Shown here piece by piece: positions 3,397-60,978 of a DNA stretch of 64,000 nt (its first letter is position 1; each line of letters starts with the position of its first letter). The translations under genes were made by a program, and so were the position numbers. The DNA comes from Candidatus Woesearchaeota archaeon (GTDB taxonomy: Archaea; Nanobdellota; Nanobdellia; Woesearchaeales; GW2011-AR9). The notes under the pieces were generated by a model. The model was given only the letters and a program-made list of their open reading frames with translations. It searched no databases and was not told the origin of the DNA. The DNA lies in NCBI GenBank assembly GCA_016188115.1, contig JACPIK010000002.1, forward strand, positions 680,077 to 744,076, written 5' to 3'.

Positions 3397-3515
3397 GTAG
3401 AGTAAAATAAGAATGGTATTTTTAAAATTTTCTATAAGTTATATAACTTCTATAAATTAAATATAATAAAAAGTAGTGTTGTCACTTGTTAATTACAATT
3501 AAGTGAGGGACAACC

Positions 3516-4370
3516 ATGAAACAAACACTTTATTCAACTTTAACTGCATTGACGCTAGCTGCGTGTGGTGGAACGGCACCAGGGGTTAATCAATCTGAGA
3601 CCATTAATGACACCCAACGTCAAGAAGCAATCGCATCGCTTCAAAAACGTGGAGTTACAATCGATGAAACATTATCCTGCGGCCCTTTCACAAATGGTTT
3701 TGGAGAAAATCCACAACCAGAAGGCAATGCTCAGTTCAAAGCTACTAGCTCTTATTTTAAAGATAAAGGAGAGAACCTACTCCGAACTCAAAGTTATAAC
3801 GCATTTAAGATTTCACTTACTCAGGATAGAGCAGGAAAATACCATGCCCATGAAATAGGAAATACAAAAACTGAACGAGGCCTGGATTCATTTGCGCGAT
3901 TTGTCTGCTATGTTTCTAGTAAGCCCAGTTACACTAAAGAGATTGAAGGCAAAGAACTCGAAGATGGAAAACGTGAAGATGGAAAAGCAACCTATGGTCG
4001 TCTTGTAAGAGAAATGGATCAAAAGTTTAGTGCTGCAGTTGAAGAATCCGATAGACGTTTTGACGAAGCAGTGAGAGAATCAGACCGCAGATTTGATGAC
4101 ACCCTACGCAGAAGTAATGAGCGTTTTGATGAATTAAGAGAGAAAAACCGCCAAAGATTTGAGGACACAGTTAAGCGAAATAGAGAGCGATTTAACGAAA
4201 CAAGAAGCCAATTTGACGAAGAAGTAGAAGCTACGAGTGATGATTCTAAGTGTAATAAACAATACCTAGCTGATCTTGCAGTGTGTGAAAGATCACTCTA
4301 CGAAGACCACAAAAAACAATGCGCAGACCGAGCACTTCGAGAAGCTAATTGGTGCAAAGAATTTGAATAA
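3516..4370 (+). CDS. Secreted lipoprotein-like protein with internal RFDE coiled repeats
   Basis: Signal peptide MKQTLYSTLTALTLAACGG with a lipobox-like LAAC. The C-terminal half contains 11-aa repeats (ESDRRFDEAVR, ESDRRFDDTLR, SNERFDELREK, NRQRFEDTVKR, NRERFNETRSQ). Confidence 0.5.
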   Translation: MKQTLYSTLTALTLAACGGTAPGVNQSETINDTQRQEAIASLQKRGVTIDETLSCGPFTNGFGENPQPEGNAQFKATSSYFKDKGENLLRTQSYNAFKISLTQDRAGKYHAHEIGNTKTERGLDSFARFVCYVSSKPSYTKEIEGKELEDGKREDGKATYGRLVREMDQKFSAAVEESDRRFDEAVRESDRRFDDTLRRSNERFDELREKNRQRFEDTVKRNRERFNETRSQFDEEVEATSDDSKCNKQYLADLAVCERSLYEDHKKQCADRALREANWCKEFE

Positions 4371-5405: not shown

Positions 5406-6101
5406 ATGAAAGAAAATGAATTACAGGAAGCATTAGACAGAAAAATTGCCCAATATTATCGTAATGATAAACTGATAAGCTTAGCTATTATTGCTTTTGG
5501 TGTAGCTAGTGCGGGAACTGTTGCGTATTATGGTCAGGAGGTTTATTTTAAAACATTTCCCGATTCACCATCAAGTGCCCCAACTCTAACAGATCCCAAT
5601 CCAAATGTGGCACAACTGATACACTCGTCTGCCCCTTATTCAGCGACCACACTAATTTCAACCCCGCCTATTTTAAGAGAAGTTAATTCACAACCAAAAA
5701 GAACAAGTAAACCTGCAGCAAAAGAAAAAAGTCATTACCAACCAAAACCCCAGATATTATATTATTCTACACCCAATGTGACTGGATCAAAATTAGAAGG
5801 ATTGATTGGACAACCCAAACCAACCGTTGTTGATTTTTACGCTAGTTGGTGCGGACCTTGTAAACTTCTCGAACCAGTCTTTAATCAAGTAGCAACCCAA
5901 TACAAAGAACAAGCAACATTTGTACGCATTAACATAGATACAGAAAATGCAGCCGCTATAAAATACGGTGCAACAAAAATTCCCCTTGTTATCGTATTTC
6001 AAAACGGAACAGAGGATTCAAGATTTAATGGCTATTCTCCCAATGGAACTATGAATCAAATCTGGATGAAAGACACATTAGATAGATTACTAGCAAAATA
6101 A
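5406..6101 (+). CDS. Membrane-anchored thioredoxin-domain protein
   Basis: WCGPCK active-site motif in a thioredoxin fold (VVDFYASWCGPCKLLEP). It has an N-terminal TM helix (LISLAIIAFGVASAGTVAYY) and a Pro/Ser-rich linker. Confidence 0.75.
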   Translation: MKENELQEALDRKIAQYYRNDKLISLAIIAFGVASAGTVAYYGQEVYFKTFPDSPSSAPTLTDPNPNVAQLIHSSAPYSATTLISTPPILREVNSQPKRTSKPAAKEKSHYQPKPQILYYSTPNVTGSKLEGLIGQPKPTVVDFYASWCGPCKLLEPVFNQVATQYKEQATFVRINIDTENAAAIKYGATKIPLVIVFQNGTEDSRFNGYSPNGTMNQIWMKDTLDRLLAK

Positions 6102-36412: not shown

Positions 36413-36601
36413 AAAAATTGAAAAATAGACACTATTTAAAAATGTTACTACCTAGAAGAGACATTACAAAAGTTCTAAAATTAAAGATAAACATTAATAA
36501 ATAGCTCGCAATTTTTTAACAAGTCCTCAAAGTGCCAATGGATGTGTCGGCAGTAAAAAATCATTCTGATTTTTGAGTCGCCACATAGCATAAAAAATTC
36601 A

Positions 36602-36691
36602 TGCGGATGTGTCGGAGTGGTCAAACGAGCTACCTTGAGGGGGTAGTGGCTTAGTGCCTGCGCAGGTTCGAACCCTGTCTTCCGCACCATT
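36602..36691 (+). tRNA. tRNA-Leu (anticodon GAG), type II long variable arm, CCA encoded
   Basis: Hand-folded. Acceptor GCGGATG/CTTCCGC (one U-U mismatch at 6:67), D-arm TCG-GAGTGGTCAAA-CGA, anticodon arm CTACC-TTGAGGG-GGTAG, 15-nt variable arm, T-arm GCAGG-TTCGAAC-CCTGT, discriminator A, CCA, then a T5 run. Confidence 0.8.
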
Positions 36692-58356: not shown

Positions 58357-59835
58357 CTAGACCACCTTATAGCCAATAGAATGAGTAAGGATATCTTTTG
58401 CCAAGCCTAAATGAATCTCGCTTTCAGCATAAATAGTATACAAAGCAGTGCCTTTAGCAACTTTTGCGCCCACGGCAGCATGTAAAAAAACACCAGCCCC
58501 TTTATCTAATGGAGCACCCGCAACACGAGCAATCTTTGCAATAATTTCGTTATCAATTTCACGAATAGTTCCCGATTTTGGAACAGTAACAACATAGGTA
58601 TATTTTCCTAAACAAAACTGTTTTTGTTTACCTTGTGCACGAATAATATCTTGCATCTTCGTAAACGCTTTTCCTGACTCCAAAATTTCTTTCGCGCGAG
58701 CATGAGCATGAGCATAAGGACAATTACACACCATTTCAATAAGATGAGCTGACATCGCAATAGCTTTCTTCTTAAGATCTTGAGGAGCTTTAGGATCATT
58801 GCGTAACACCGCCATAACATCATTTGCTTCCAGAAGAGGACCAACACCAAACCCGATAGGCTGCGAACCATCGGTAATTTCAACACGCACTTTCATCCCC
58901 AAATGCTTTCCTACTAAAGTAAACATTTTCTTAAGATGAAGTGCTTCTTTATGTGATTTGACTTTCGCAGTTTTTCCCATAGGGATATCAATCAAAACAT
59001 GCGTTGCGCCAACAGAATATTTCTTCGCCATCACCGACGCAAGCATTTGACCTTCCGCATCAATCGAAAGAGGATGTTCCACCATGATAATTTTATCATC
59101 AGCAGGAGCAAGGTTCATTGAACCACCATGAACAATACAAGCGCCCGTCTTTTTAACAACCTCTCGAATCTTTTTCTCCGAGAGAACAACTTGTGCCAAA
59201 CACTCCATCGTATCAGCAGTACCGGCAGGTGACGTGATTGCGCGTGAACTTGTTTTAGGAATAGTATATCCCGCTGCTGCAATAATAGGAATCACAATCA
59301 TTGTAGTACGATTACCAGGAAGACCACCGATACAATGTTTATCTAATGTAAGAGATCCAAACTTAAGTTTCTCCCCCGTATCTACCATTGCTTTAGTCAT
59401 ATCAACAACTTCATGAATATCCCACCCATGTACAAATCCAGCAGAAACAAAATACGTTTTTTCAATGTCACTTAATCGGTCATTCGTAATATCATCAATA
59501 ATGGAATATAACTCTTTATACCCTAACTTTGCGCCAAATAATTTTTCTCTAATGTGAGCCAAAGACTCAGGTTTTCCTGCATATCGAACACGAACTTTTT
59601 GCCCATGTTTTACATGAAGTAACGCCAGCACTTCTTCAAAGAGACCAATTGATCCTTCTGGAACAACTTTATCATGCTGTGCAATATCAAGAATACAAGT
59701 GATTTCTTTAGGATGATCTTTGATCGTAATCCTATCACCGATATGAAGATCAAGGCGTTGCGCATCTTTCTGATTAAGAATAGCAACCAAAACATTACCT
59801 GTAGCAATATCCATATCCTTAACTTTAAAATACAT
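58357..59835 (-). CDS. deoA: AMP phosphorylase / thymidine phosphorylase-family protein (archaeal long form)
   Basis: KHCIGGLPGNRTTMIVIPIIAAAGYTIPKTSSRAITSPAGTADTME. About 490 aa with the N-terminal extension typical of archaeal AMPpase. Confidence 0.85.
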   Translation of the reverse strand: MYFKVKDMDIATGNVLVAILNQKDAQRLDLHIGDRITIKDHPKEITCILDIAQHDKVVPEGSIGLFEEVLALLHVKHGQKVRVRYAGKPESLAHIREKLFGAKLGYKELYSIIDDITNDRLSDIEKTYFVSAGFVHGWDIHEVVDMTKAMVDTGEKLKFGSLTLDKHCIGGLPGNRTTMIVIPIIAAAGYTIPKTSSRAITSPAGTADTMECLAQVVLSEKKIREVVKKTGACIVHGGSMNLAPADDKIIMVEHPLSIDAEGQMLASVMAKKYSVGATHVLIDIPMGKTAKVKSHKEALHLKKMFTLVGKHLGMKVRVEITDGSQPIGFGVGPLLEANDVMAVLRNDPKAPQDLKKKAIAMSAHLIEMVCNCPYAHAHARAKEILESGKAFTKMQDIIRAQGKQKQFCLGKYTYVVTVPKSGTIREIDNEIIAKIARVAGAPLDKGAGVFLHAAVGAKVAKGTALYTIYAESEIHLGLAKDILTHSIGYKVV

Positions 59836-59955
59836 AATCTAATCCCTCTTTTAGTAGGAAAGAATCATTTTATGGTTTATATAGATTGTGATAAGATTAA
59901 ATGCCAAAGAATACAAAACCTTTTTAAAGAACCATTAGTCTGACAACGACATAGT

Positions 59956-60069
59956 GGGCCCGTGGTCTAGCGGTTACGGAAAAATCAATTCCGCCACAGA
60001 TGACAGCGCCCTTACAAGGAGAAATCCTCTGAAAGGCGTTAGTCCCCGGTTCAAATCCGGGCGGGCCCA
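59956..60069 (+). tRNA. tRNA-Val (anticodon TAC) with two introns (D-loop region and canonical 37/38)
   Basis: Acceptor GGGCCCG/CGGGCCC, discriminator A. D-arm GTC...GAC interrupted by about 24 nt (CGGAAAAATCAATTCCGCCACAGA). Anticodon arm GCGCC-CTTACAA-GGCGT interrupted by a 17-nt hairpin intron (AGGAGAAATCCTCTGAA). T-arm CCCGG-TTCAAAT-CCGGG. The mature length is 73 nt. Confidence 0.75.
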
Positions 60070-60143
60070 TTCATACTTCTTTATTCAACAACGATTCCCG
60101 GATGCAAAAACGGGTCACGAACGAGCAAAGCGAAGTGACTCGA

Positions 60144-60189
60144 CCCAGTTCAAATAGAAGATTACATTTCTAGGCAGGCCCATTCATAC
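60144..60189 (+). repeat. Degenerate duplicate of the tRNA-Val 3' end (T-arm, acceptor and flanking CCCATTCATAC)
   Basis: CCCAGTTCAAAT...GGCAGGCCCATTCATAC compared with the tRNA copy CCCGGTTCAAATCCGGGCGGGCCCATTCATAC, about 110 bp downstream. Confidence 0.5.
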
Positions 60190-60243
60190 CCCTACTTCTC
60201 TAAAACCATACTTTTTATATATCAAAACCGATCTAACTTACTC

Positions 60244-60978
60244 GTGGATCAAAAAATCTTTGACATGCTTTTAGAAGAAGAGGAGATTAGCTGGAAGACT
60301 ATCCTTCAAGATCTCGTTAAGCGAGAAGAAATGGATCCGTGGGATATCGATATCACTGTTCTTACTCAACGTTACATTCAAGTTATTAAAGAGATGAAAG
60401 AGCACGACCTCAAGATTTCAGGAAAAATTCTTCTCGCCGCAGCATTTCTACTCAAACTCAAATGTTCCAACTTACTTGAAAAAGATTTTACCCGTCTTGA
60501 TGCTCTCATGAGTCAAACTGAAAACCTTGACGAACTGGAAGATGAAATTTTTGAAGGAAACGACGGAGAAAAACGCGTCAAAGAGAAATATCAACTCATT
60601 CCACGTAACCCTCAACCTCGTAATCGTAAAGTATCTATGAATGATTTAATTGAAGCATTACAACATGCCATGGAAAGTAAAAAACGCTTCTTAGAAAAAA
60701 TTAGGCCTGTCAAATTCAAATTACCTGAACGTAAAATGGACATCATGGAAGCAATTCGCGATGTTTATCAAAAATTAATTTATTATACACAAAAAGAAAA
60801 CAAAACAACGATCACATTTAGCAAACTTCTTCCACCCAATAGCGGCAAAGATGAAAAAGTGTATACATTTGTGCCATTACTTCATCTAGAAAATCAACAC
60901 CGCGTAGAAATGGAACAAAAAAAAGCATTTGAAGAGATTGCCGTCACCGTACGTGCGCGAAAGACCAAAGTAGCATAA
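60244..60978 (+). CDS. scpA: Segregation and condensation protein A (ScpA, kleisin)
   Basis: ISWKTILQDLVKREEMDPWDIDITVLTQRYIQVIKEMKEHDL is typical of the ScpA N-terminus. The track uses a GTG start. The ATG at MLLEEEE is an alternative. Confidence 0.7.
   Translation: MDQKIFDMLLEEEEISWKTILQDLVKREEMDPWDIDITVLTQRYIQVIKEMKEHDLKISGKILLAAAFLLKLKCSNLLEKDFTRLDALMSQTENLDELEDEIFEGNDGEKRVKEKYQLIPRNPQPRNRKVSMNDLIEALQHAMESKKRFLEKIRPVKFKLPERKMDIMEAIRDVYQKLIYYTQKENKTTITFSKLLPPNSGKDEKVYTFVPLLHLENQHRVEMEQKKAFEEIAVTVRARKTKVA

What the first reader, a model, noticed from the sequence alone, without database searches (positions are those of the whole stretch)
59956..60193. Two-intron tRNA-Val followed by a degenerate copy of its own 3' end: a likely integration or excision scar
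About 110 bp downstream of the tRNA lies CCCAGTTCAAAT…GGCAGGCCCATTCATAC, matching the T-arm, acceptor and flank of the tRNA (CCCGGTTCAAATCCGGGCGGGCCCATTCATAC). Direct repeats of a tRNA 3' segment are the attL/attR signature of integrase-mediated insertion. The short spacing suggests an element that has since been lost or largely deleted. The tRNA itself has introns in the D-loop region (about 24 nt) and at 37/38 (17-nt hairpin).
Basis: seen in the sequence. Interest (0 to 1): 0.55.

Follow-up and report, generated by a model that had tools for sequence, protein, structure and literature searches.

The report
Relic duplicate of a tRNA end
A valine tRNA gene with two introns in a tiny archaeon (Woesearchaeota) is followed by a decayed second copy of its last 25 bases that still holds the stump of a third intron; this is a leftover of DNA recombination at the gene and shows how tRNA introns can be swapped in or out, although a well-conserved hairpin next to it remains unexplained.

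Summary
Positions 59956-60069 encode tRNA-Val(TAC) with a 24-nt D-loop intron and a 17-nt 37/38 intron. Its T-arm, 3' acceptor strand and flank recur 74 nt downstream (60144-60202). The match is far above chance.

The 14 extra bases inside the copy lie at T-loop position 59/60. Ten related Woesearchaeota carry a genuine splice-competent tRNA-Val intron there. The nearest relative with the same layout (L001/L024) has a perfect second T-arm with a 38-nt intron-like insert. So an intron-free and an intron-bearing version of one tRNA 3' end sit side by side. This fits the published recombination model of tRNA intron gain and loss.

The integrase reading is only partly supported. No integrase or element gene was found in the window or in about 25 related loci. 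The same 74-nt spacer is present in L001. The spacer partly resembles the scpA promoter and start.

Distant relatives do show classic signs of insertion at this site, such as a ParE toxin cassette between 17-nt tRNA-end repeats.

One result does not fit a plain scar. A 32-nt hairpin beside the copy is 86% conserved where synonymous sites are saturated. A functional RNA is therefore not excluded.

The parts
59915..59928 (+). Inferred archaeal promoter of tRNA-Val (AAAACC + TTTTTAAA), about 27 nt upstream of the tRNA start
   Evidence: Read from the sequence. The same AAAACC/T-rich TATA pattern lies upstream of scpA. This is an inference and was not tested.
59956..60069 (+). tRNA-Val(TAC) gene, 114 nt, 73 nt after splicing; CCA is not encoded
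   Evidence: ARAGORN on the spliced sequence; Rfam RF00005 44.2 bits; fold z = -4.5. All 73 exon positions are identical in L024.
59977..60000 (+). Intron 1, 24 nt, in the D-loop (20/21 or 21/22). The boundary is ambiguous by one A, so 59976-59999 is equally possible.
   Evidence: Its removal restores the D-arm GTCT/AGCGGTTA/TGAC seen without an intron in L004 and L008. The fold shows a relaxed bulge-helix-bulge: GCGG pairs with CCAC at 3 of 4 positions, next to a CGGAA/TTCCG hairpin. It is 88% identical in L024.
60017..60033 (+). Intron 2, 17 nt, at the canonical 37/38 position. The boundary is ambiguous within an A run.
   Evidence: L023 has a nearly identical intron (16/17). L001 has an expanded 42-nt version.
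60045..60083 (+). Repeat copy 1: T-arm (CCCGG TTCAAAT CCGGG), 3' acceptor strand, A73 and 14 nt of flank. This is the working 3' end of the tRNA.
60070..60110 (+). Spacer: T-rich trailer, a TATA-like TTCTTTATTC (60076-60085), and GGATGCAAAAA, which resembles the scpA start GGATCAAAAAA
   Evidence: It aligns with 60207-60256 (scpA promoter and start) with score 28 against 16.6 +/- 2.8; 8 of 3000 shuffles reach that score. The first 20 nt are 80% conserved in L024 and the rest 48%.
60111..60142 (+). Conserved hairpin: 8-bp stem CGGGTCAC/GTGACTCG, an internal loop and a short inner stem
   Evidence: The fold shows the 8-bp stem. It is 30/35 identical to L024, and the indels fall in the loop or add an inner base pair. 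No Rfam match.
60144..60155 (+). Repeat copy 2, first part: T-stem 5' strand and T-loop (CCCAG TTCAAAT), 11/12 to copy 1
60156..60169 (+). 14-nt insert at T-loop position 59/60, read as the stump of a T-loop intron
   Evidence: It sits at the same position as the 26-135-nt splice-competent introns of tRNA-Val in 10 relatives and the 38-nt insert of L001 copy 2. Here the central helix pairs at only 2 of 4 positions and there is no inner hairpin.
60170..60182 (+). Repeat copy 2, second part: T-stem 3' strand (CTAGG), 3' acceptor strand (CAGGCCC) and A73; 10/13 to copy 1
   Evidence: The G52>A and C62>T changes keep a pair. C51/A63 and C6/A67 are mismatches.
60183..60202 (+). Repeated flank TTCATAC, a 6-nt stutter, then TACTTCTCTA, the second flank piece
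   Evidence: The corresponding region of L024 holds four CCCAT... variants.
60203..60243 (+). scpA promoter (AAAACC ATAC TTTTTATATA) and the leaderless start region. This is context and the right-hand boundary of the feature.
   Evidence: 78% identical in L024 and also conserved in L023. The scpA ORF is 60244-60978; Pfam SMC_ScpA.

Best explanation
The second copy is a recombination relic. Two versions of the last third of tRNA-Val were joined in tandem, one without a T-loop intron and one with an intron at position 59/60.

The intron-free version (60045-60069) now completes the working gene. The intron-bearing version was left 74 nt downstream, in front of the scpA promoter. In this genome it has decayed: four base changes, and the intron cut down to 14 nt.

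The most likely route is insertion of DNA carrying a tRNA-Val 3' segment into the resident gene by crossover inside the 12-nt T-stem/T-loop block or the 13-nt T-stem/acceptor block. This would be an attL/attR-type duplication, made by a site-specific recombinase or by homology-assisted recombination with DNA from a related Woesearchaeon. Almost all of the inserted DNA was then lost, before the window and L001 lineages split.

Shown: the repeat, the intron position, the splice-competent twin in L001, and the recombinogenic nature of this site in relatives.

Inferred: the direction of the event, the enzyme, and the loss of an element.

Not explained: why the hairpin at 60111-60142 stays conserved.
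For: 1. The repeat of the T-arm, acceptor strand and flank is highly non-random.
2. The insert lies exactly at 59/60. Ten relatives have genuine tRNA-Val introns there with T-stem 5/5, central helix 3-4/4 and a closing hairpin (sequences).
3. L001/L024 has the same layout, with a perfect second T-arm and acceptor and a 38-nt insert that meets the same geometry (5/5, 4/4, -9.7 kcal/mol).
4. L006 shows the reciprocal product: an intron-bearing working copy followed by an intron-free duplicate that shares 21 nt of flank.
5. L012 has an antitoxin and ParE toxin cassette bracketed by an exact 17-nt repeat of the tRNA 3' end. L013 has a similar cassette.
6. L024 has stacked CCCAT... flank variants, one identical over 18 nt to the L031 tRNA-Val flank.
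7. Empty sites exist, with tRNA-Val directly in front of scpA, in L004, L005, L008, L015 and L016. The cargo between the two genes differs in L006, L009, L010, L014, L018, L023 and L027.
8. There is a published precedent. Recombination between an intron-bearing and an intron-free att sequence left a tRNA fragment repeat in Caldiarchaeum (PMC3293823).
Against: - No integrase gene or other element gene appears among the ORFs and Pfam hits examined, here or in any related locus.
- The nearest relative with the repeat has the same short spacer, so no occupied site is seen in this clade.
- The hairpin (86%) and the tRNA-like parts of copy 2 (77-92%) are conserved between the window and L024. Neighbouring spacer and insert are 16-48% identical, and dS of the flanking genes is 1.5 or more. 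An inert scar should have decayed.
- Copy 2 of L001 is intact and looks spliceable.
- The spacer resembles the local scpA promoter and start, which a foreign element would not be expected to carry.
- Scans of viral contigs for the hairpin found nothing relevant.
Confidence: 0.5

Rival explanations
1. Local tandem duplication with no mobile element. A segment of about 100 nt, running from the T-arm through the flank and the scpA promoter into the first scpA codons, was duplicated in place by slippage, unequal crossing-over or template switching. The hairpin is junction filler. The upstream copy later lost its T-loop intron and the downstream copy kept it.
For: - The spacer after copy 1 (60072-60110) aligns with the scpA promoter and start after copy 2 (60207-60256): CATACTT.TT.TAT.TCAA.A.CGAT...GGAT.CAAAAA. 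The score is 28 against 16.6 +/- 2.8, reached by 8 of 3000 shuffles.
- The repeat extends beyond the tRNA into the flank.
- Stuttered short flank repeats occur here and in L024 and L006.
- No element genes were found anywhere.
Against: - The same comparison is not significant in L024 (702 of 3000 shuffles). AT-rich promoter-like sequence can converge.
- It needs a second event, precise loss of the intron from copy 1.
- The hairpin shows no similarity to scpA codons 5-16 by eye.
- It does not explain the foreign-looking 18-nt L031-type flank in L024 or the ParE cassette between repeats in L012.
Confidence: 0.2
2. The module is a working RNA gene. A transcript starts near 60108-60112, about 25 nt downstream of the TATA-like TTCTTTATTC. 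It comprises the hairpin, a T-arm with a spliceable insert and a 3' acceptor strand. It would serve as a stand-alone tRNA 3' piece, either a split-tRNA part for another tRNA-Val isoacceptor as in Nanoarchaeum equitans, or a tRNA-like regulatory or processing RNA.
For: - The hairpin is 30/35 conserved and the tRNA-like parts 77-92%, while adjacent segments are 16-48% and synonymous sites are saturated.
- Indels in the hairpin fall in loops or add a base pair.
- G52>A is compensated by C62>T in copy 2.
- Copy 2 of L001 is perfect, meets the splice-site geometry, and is followed by TTTTTATTTT.
- A TATA-like box lies at the right distance in both genomes.
- Split tRNAs are known in this phylum. 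Tool-based surveys report unexplained 'missing' tRNA-Val in some orders (preprint 10.64898/2026.05.13.725050).
- A different structured module, with 4 compensatory pairs in 3 sequences, occupies the same place in L006, L013 and L014.
Against: - There is no 5' acceptor partner and no sequence complementary to the leader in the 64-kb window.
- The leader is a closed hairpin, not a free strand that could pair with a 5' half.
- In the window the T-stem and the acceptor each carry a C/A mismatch, and the insert can no longer form the splice motif.
- The sister lineage L023 and most other relatives lack the module.
- Only two lineages carry it, so covariation cannot be tested.
- No Rfam family matches.
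Confidence: 0.2
3. Chance resemblance between AT-rich intergenic DNA and the tRNA 3' end.
For: None beyond the short length of the two matching blocks (12 and 17 nt).
Against: None of 5000 shuffles reaches the observed alignment score, and no comparable match exists elsewhere in the window. The same arrangement, in better condition, is present in L001/L024.
Confidence: 0.01

Closest known systems
attL/attR direct repeats of tRNA 3' ends flanking archaeal integrated elements (SSV1 44-bp attP in tRNA-Arg; pNOB8-type plasmids), as summarised in PMC3293823
   Same: An intact tRNA gene is followed by a direct repeat of its 3' segment that runs past the acceptor end into the flank. Relatives show gene cassettes between such repeats at the same tRNA.
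   Different: Only 74 nt lie between the repeats. There is no integrase gene, whole or partitioned. The repeat is interrupted by an intron relic. The same short spacer is inherited in a second lineage. Part of the spacer is conserved.
Sugahara et al. 2012 model of tRNA-Thr(GGU) disruption in Caldiarchaeum subterraneum (PMC3293823): recombination between an intron-bearing and an intron-free att sequence
   Same: Two versions of one tRNA segment that differ by an intron end up as direct repeats. One completes the gene and the other is left as a fragment. This gives a route for intron gain or loss.
   Different: There the fragment is a 5' piece, lies 1.8 kb away, has a recombinase gene in between, and the intron is at 24/25. 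Here it is a 3' piece, 74 nt away, with no recombinase and the intron at 59/60. Either copy could be the incoming one.
Split tRNA 3' halves of Nanoarchaeum equitans and recently split tRNAs of Desulfurococcales (PMC3218864)
   Same: A free-standing 3' tRNA piece in the same phylum as N. equitans, with a possible promoter and (in L001) an oligo-T terminator.
   Different: Known 3' halves start at 37/38 or 30/31 and carry a leader complementary to the trailer of a 5' half. This piece starts at position 49, its leader is a self-closed hairpin, and no 5' half was found.
Non-canonical and multiple tRNA introns at 59/60, and permuted tRNAs joined at 59/60 (Thermofilum pendens, Cyanidioschyzon merolae; PMC3218864)
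   Same: The same T-loop position and the same bulge-helix-bulge geometry built on the T-stem.
   Different: The gene order here is not permuted. The 59/60 insert sits in a duplicate, not in the working gene.

Membership tests
Archaeal intron-containing tRNA gene | A canonical cloverleaf with a sense anticodon after removal of the inserts | tested here: met
   A 73-nt tRNA-Val(tac) is called by ARAGORN after removing 24 and 17 nt. Rfam tRNA scores 44.2 bits against a gathering score of 29.
Archaeal intron-containing tRNA gene | A bulge-helix-bulge (or relaxed) motif at each exon-intron junction | tested here: inconclusive
   D-loop intron: the fold shows a 4-position helix GCGG/CCAC with one C/A mismatch between two 3-nt bulges, next to a 5-bp hairpin. 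37/38 intron: only 3 of 4 central pairs in the best register, judged by eye from the fold. The splicing endonuclease type of this genome was not examined.
Integrase-generated att duplication (integrated element or its remnant) | A direct repeat of a tRNA 3' segment bounding the insertion | tested here: met
   Blocks match at 11/12 and 16/17, and the flank also matches; alignment score 32 against a shuffle maximum of 24.5.
Integrase-generated att duplication (integrated element or its remnant) | An integrase gene or recognisable fragment inside or next to the repeats | tested here: not met
   The 408-nt intergenic region holds no ORF of note, and the neighbours are AMP phosphorylase and ScpA. 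No integrase domain was found in the ORFs between tRNA-Val and scpA in relatives. No six-frame search for integrase fragments was run.
Integrase-generated att duplication (integrated element or its remnant) | Empty and occupied versions of the same site in related genomes | tested here: inconclusive
   Empty sites: L004, L005, L008, L015, L016. Occupied by a ParE cassette between 17-nt repeats: L012; L013 is similar. Both are distant relatives (ScpA 63-65% identical). Within the close clade, L001 has the same short spacer and L023 has unrelated genes without a repeat.
Integrase-generated att duplication (integrated element or its remnant) | Foreign origin of the DNA between the repeats | tested here: inconclusive
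   74 nt is too short for a composition test. No match to the hairpin in IMG/VR apart from one chance hit in a GC-rich phage gene. The spacer partly resembles the local scpA promoter.
Split tRNA 3' half | Intact T-arm and acceptor strand able to pair with a 5' half | tested here: not met
   In the window the T-stem pairs at 4 of 5 positions, there is a C/A mismatch against the only available 5' strand, and the insert is not spliceable. The feature is met in L001.
Split tRNA 3' half | A leader complementary to the trailer of a separately encoded 5' half | not testable with these tools
   No partner exists in the 64-kb window. The rest of the 1.47-Mb genome could not be read. The leader folds on itself.

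The most novel reading that the evidence does not exclude
The hairpin, T-arm and acceptor module is a conserved, separately transcribed tRNA-derived RNA of Woesearchaeota. It would be either the shared 3' piece of a trans-spliced tRNA-Val isoacceptor, split at an unprecedented position (48/49) and carrying its own T-loop intron, or a new class of tRNA-linked structured RNA. The unrelated but equally structured 'type A' module at the same place in L006, L013 and L014 would be a second member of that class.
Probability: 0.18. Interest if true: 0.7.

Novelty: new member of a known kind. Interest (0 to 1): 0.4.

Why it matters
How archaeal tRNA genes gain and lose introns at odd positions is still argued from very few cases.

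Here an intron-free and an intron-bearing version of the same tRNA segment lie side by side. Both reciprocal arrangements occur in related genomes: the window and L001 on one side, L006 on the other. That is the outcome predicted if introns are exchanged by recombination at tRNA genes. It extends the one well-documented case (Caldiarchaeum) to DPANN archaea and to the T-loop.

The locus also shows that tRNA-Val in this group carries introns at up to three positions. Standard finders miss such genes. ARAGORN found neither this gene nor most of its relatives. This may explain reports of 'missing' tRNA-Val in complete Nanobdellota genomes.

If the conserved hairpin module proves to be expressed, it would add a new tRNA-derived RNA to a phylum already known for split tRNAs.

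Tried and rejected
1. ARAGORN with and without intron mode on the raw locus finds nothing. The gene is only recognised after manual splicing.
2. The Rfam gathering-threshold run on the whole window returned nothing. E-value runs give only the two tRNAs and no family for the module. No hits at E <= 0.01 in five related loci.
3. IMG/VR scans for the window hairpin and for the type A module gave 0 hits, or one chance hit each inside coding regions of unrelated phages.
4. A covariance model of the type A module (L006, L013, L014) does not match the window or L001 module. The two are not demonstrably the same family; they share only the 9-mer GCGAAGTGA with L014.
5. Kink-turn, C/D-box or H/ACA readings of the hairpins were rejected by inspection, because the required GA pairs, boxes and pocket are not in register.
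6. A small ORF (ATG at 60102, 23 codons) was rejected. A 2-nt indel in L001 breaks the frame.
7. The hairpin as an anticodon arm was rejected. The 16-18-nt loop has no U33 or anticodon pattern and is too short to hold an intron.
8. Similarity of the module to T-loop introns of relatives is at best p = 0.007-0.04 over 22 tests, which is not significant after correction.
9. No complement of the hairpin and no second GGGCC(C/T)G 5' end exists in the window.
10. No integrase, SSV-type or other, was seen among the ORFs between tRNA-Val and scpA in relatives.
11. A multiple alignment of the four after-copy flanks gave no useful picture.

Full report
CONTEXT. The window is about 39% G+C. The ScpA protein encoded next to the finding is identical to a protein of a Candidatus Woesearchaeota genome with a 1.47-Mb contig. 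Its closest genomic relatives are Woesearchaeota or Nanoarchaeota metagenome-assembled genomes. The finding lies in a 408-nt intergenic region. On one side is an AMP phosphorylase-type gene (58357-59835, minus strand). On the other is scpA (60244-60978, plus strand), followed by lonB. This intergenic region is identical in three independent assemblies (L020-L022), so it is not an assembly artefact.

THE tRNA. ARAGORN and Rfam at gathering threshold both miss the gene. After removal of 59977-60000 (24 nt) and 60017-60033 (17 nt), the remaining 73 nt form a standard cloverleaf that ARAGORN calls tRNA-Val(tac). Rfam's tRNA model aligns the unspliced gene end to end at 44.2 bits, with insertions of 26 and 18 nt at the same places. 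The precursor folds much better than shuffles (z = -4.5).
- The first intron is in the D-loop. The fold shows a relaxed bulge-helix-bulge: GCGG pairs with CCAC with one C/A mismatch, there are two 3-nt bulges, and a CGGAA/TTCCG hairpin follows.
- The second intron is at the canonical 37/38 position. Its splice motif is less clean in my hands.

THE REPEAT. The T-stem 5' strand and T-loop recur at 60144-60155 (11/12). The T-stem 3' end, acceptor strand, A73 and seven flank bases recur at 60173-60189 (16/17). A gapped local alignment of 60045-60083 against the next 160 nt scores 32. In 5000 shuffles the mean was 12.8 +/- 2.0 and the maximum 24.5, and nothing else in the 64-kb window exceeds 21. 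The alignment has two gaps: 14 nt inside the T-loop and 6 nt in the flank. After the second gap it picks up a further flank piece (TACTTCTCTA, 60193-60202). The gap between the tRNA and the copy is 74 nt.

WHAT THE EXTRA BASES ARE. Loci anchored on scpA were fetched from genome, metagenome and assembly collections. They show that tRNA-Val(TAC) in front of scpA is a widely conserved arrangement in this group, and that the gene carries introns at up to three positions.
- Ten relatives (L002, L003/L011, L006, L009, L010, L012, L018, L019, L027, L031) have an intron of 26-135 nt in the T-loop between positions 59 and 60.
- In every one the T-stem is 5/5, the four T-loop bases 54-57 pair with the four intron bases that precede the 3' splice site by two (3-4 of 4 pairs), and the rest of the intron closes into a hairpin. 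This is the same geometry as a canonical anticodon-loop intron.
- The 14 extra bases in the window's copy sit at exactly this position.
- The closest relative that shares the layout, L001/L024 (ScpA 86% identical), has tRNA-Val with the same two introns, a similar spacer, the same hairpin, and then a second T-arm and acceptor identical to the first. That second copy is interrupted at 59/60 by 38 nt that satisfy the splice geometry in full: 5/5, TTCA/TGAG 4/4, inner hairpin -9.7 kcal/mol.
- The window's copy is the decayed form: T-stem 4/5, central helix 2/4, no inner hairpin, and a G-to-A change in the acceptor strand.
- The copy is therefore not a slightly garbled att core. It is a second version of the tRNA's 3' third that carried a T-loop intron.

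EVIDENCE THAT THE SITE RECOMBINES.
1. L006 shows the reciprocal arrangement. The working tRNA-Val has the T-loop intron. About 110 nt downstream lies an intron-free copy of the variable loop, T-arm and acceptor with 21 nt of identical flank.
2. In L012 an antitoxin and ParE toxin pair lies between tRNA-Val and an exact 17-nt repeat, TCCGGCCAGGCCCACTC, of its 3' end. L013 has a similar cassette.
3. In L024 the DNA after copy 2 contains four successive CCCAT... units. One (CCCATTCATTTCTTATAG) is identical to the 3' end and flank of tRNA-Val in L031, a different genome from the same sample.
4. The content between tRNA-Val and scpA varies. There is nothing in L004, L005, L008, L015 and L016, orphan ORFs in L006, L009, L010, L014 and L018, HGLS and TrmB genes in L023, and three small genes in L027.
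5. None of these intervals shows an integrase domain.

WHAT DOES NOT FIT A PLAIN SCAR. Synonymous sites of scpA, the phosphorylase gene and lonB are saturated between the window and L024 or L023 (dS 1.5 to undefined; identity at fourfold sites about 0.3-0.44). The intergenic segments between the window and L024 behave very differently from one another:

| Segment | Identity to L024 |
|---|---|
| tRNA exons | 100% |
| copy 2, T-stem 5' strand and loop | 92% |
| hairpin 60111-60143 | 86% |
| first 20 nt after the tRNA | 80% |
| copy 2, T-stem 3' strand and acceptor | 77% |
| rest of the spacer | 48% |
| flank stutter | 27% |
| insert in copy 2 | 16% |

- The two indels in the hairpin fall in loops or add an inner base pair. 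The one L001/L024 difference turns C-G into U-G.
- One of the four changes in the window's copy 2 (G52>A) is compensated (C62>T).
- A TATA-like TTCTTTATTC lies about 25 nt upstream of the hairpin in both genomes. L001 has TTTTTATTTT right after copy 2.
- These points argue that at least the hairpin, and in L001 the whole module, is or recently was under selection.
- Against a function: the sister lineage L023 and most relatives lack the module. No 5' acceptor partner or complement of the hairpin exists in the window. The window's own copy can no longer form a proper T-arm or splice motif.

ORIGIN: ELEMENT OR LOCAL DUPLICATION. The spacer after copy 1 aligns with the scpA promoter and start after copy 2 (score 28 against 16.6 +/- 2.8; 8 of 3000 shuffles). 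This could mean that the duplicated unit ran from the T-arm into scpA, which would be a local duplication. It could also mean that the spacer holds a promoter of similar make. The same test is not significant in L024. I therefore cannot decide between insertion of foreign or sibling DNA by crossover in the tRNA segment and a purely local duplication followed by intron loss.

I favour the insertion route for two reasons. It explains in one step how an intron-free and an intron-bearing version came together. It also matches what is seen in L006, L012 and L024. The direction also stays open. If the crossover was 5' of position 59, the intron-bearing copy is the old chromosomal end. If it was 3' of position 60, the hairpin, T-stem and intron came in with the incoming DNA, and the host gene, which is intron-free in L023 as well, was left unchanged.

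MECHANISM PROPOSED.
- Shown: a duplicated tRNA 3' third, one copy with a 59/60 intron relic; the same structure in better condition in L001; reciprocal and cassette-bearing forms in relatives.
- Inferred: a single recombination event before the window/L001 split placed the two versions in tandem. The interior was reduced to 74 nt. Copy 2 lost function in the window lineage.
- Open: whether the hairpin module was co-opted, as a promoter-driven small RNA, a trailer structure or a protein-binding site.

COMPARISON WITH KNOWN SYSTEMS. The closest precedent is the Caldiarchaeum tRNA-Thr locus. There, recombination between an intron-bearing attP and an intron-free attB was proposed to explain an extra intron and a 5' tRNA fragment next to a recombinase gene (PMC3293823). 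Classic archaeal att duplications (SSV1, pNOB8) share the tRNA 3' repeat but have an integrase gene, which is absent here. Split tRNA 3' halves (N. equitans, Desulfurococcales; PMC3218864) share the free-standing 3' piece but not the position or the leader architecture. A 2026 preprint on complete Nanobdellota genomes reports tRNA-Val 'missing' from 15 of 54 Pacearchaeales by tRNAscan-SE and leaves split genes or detection failure open. The multi-intron tRNA-Val genes seen here offer a simple candidate explanation.

VERDICT. This is a new example of a known kind of event. It has an informative twist, an intron stranded in the duplicate, and one unexplained feature, the conserved hairpin. Interest is moderate (0.4).

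Noticed in passing
window 36540-36615: tRNA-Leu(GAG) (36603-36689) has an exact 11-nt copy of its positions 3-13 (GGATGTGTCGG) 65 nt upstream. The copy is followed by sequence ending GAGTCGCCACATAG, the same GCCACAKA ending as the D-loop introns of tRNA-Val. The TATA-like TTTTTTAA lies about 25 nt upstream of the fragment, not of the gene. So both tRNAs in this window have a partial copy with an intron-like tail on their outer side.
   Followed up: partly
L006 2820-2890; L013 425-549; L014 1853-1928: A conserved two-hairpin 'type A' module lies directly downstream of tRNA-Val. The loop TAGTGTAACT is invariant. Four base pairs show compensatory changes among only three sequences, and 94% of cells are paired against 34-44% when the partners are slid. 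It ends in an acceptor-like CAGRGCYCA followed by a T run. L013 has a 57-nt insert in the second loop. No Rfam match, and it is not the same family as the window's module.
   Followed up: partly
L013 205-297; L015 5-100; L006 2552-2634: About 90-nt '5' modules' lie directly upstream of tRNA-Val. They begin with the tRNA's own first 12 nt, contain a D-loop-intron-like hairpin and an anticodon-arm-like stem-loop (a perfect CTTACAC loop in L015, degenerate in the others), and carry the only TATA-like box, so the tRNA would be transcribed with them as a leader. Their TTCAGTCCC is complementary to GGGACTGAA at the start of the type A module on the other side of the tRNA.
   Followed up: partly
L012 705-1205; L013 554-1060: A small antitoxin and ParE toxin cassette lies between tRNA-Val and scpA. 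In L012 it is bounded by an exact 17-nt repeat of the tRNA 3' end (TCCGGCCAGGCCCACTC). No integrase is present.
   Followed up: yes
L024 2407-2470 (= L001 about 5908-5970): Four tandem CCCAT... units follow copy 2. CCCATTCATTTCTTATAG is identical to the tRNA-Val 3' end and flank of L031, a different genome from the same sample (ERZ27280176).
   Followed up: partly
L024 1978-2090 (= L001 about 5477-5590): A 113-nt unit upstream of tRNA-Val is absent from the window. It starts GGGATGGTCGAG and ends CCTAGGTTCTGTCCAGGCCCA. It looks like a degenerate tRNA-like gene or a further fragment.
   Followed up: no
L023 1860-1985: A long-range palindrome of about 120 nt (ACGTTTAGCGTCTT...AAGACGCTAAACGT) lies between the phosphorylase gene and tRNA-Val and is absent from the window. 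No Rfam hit.
   Followed up: no
L014 about 3470-3590: A GC-rich stretch with long-range pairing (GTTGATGGGCGCC...GGCTGCCATCAAC) lies just upstream of scpA, where other genomes have tRNA-Val. It may be a structured RNA.
   Followed up: no
window, whole; related loci: Standard finders miss these tRNAs. ARAGORN found tRNA-Val in neither the window nor most relatives, or mis-called the anticodon. The Rfam gathering-threshold run listed nothing in the window, although both tRNAs score 44-48 bits in E-value runs.
   Followed up: yes
L001 12248-12288: A tandem repeat, CCAGACATACA x4, of unknown meaning.
   Followed up: no
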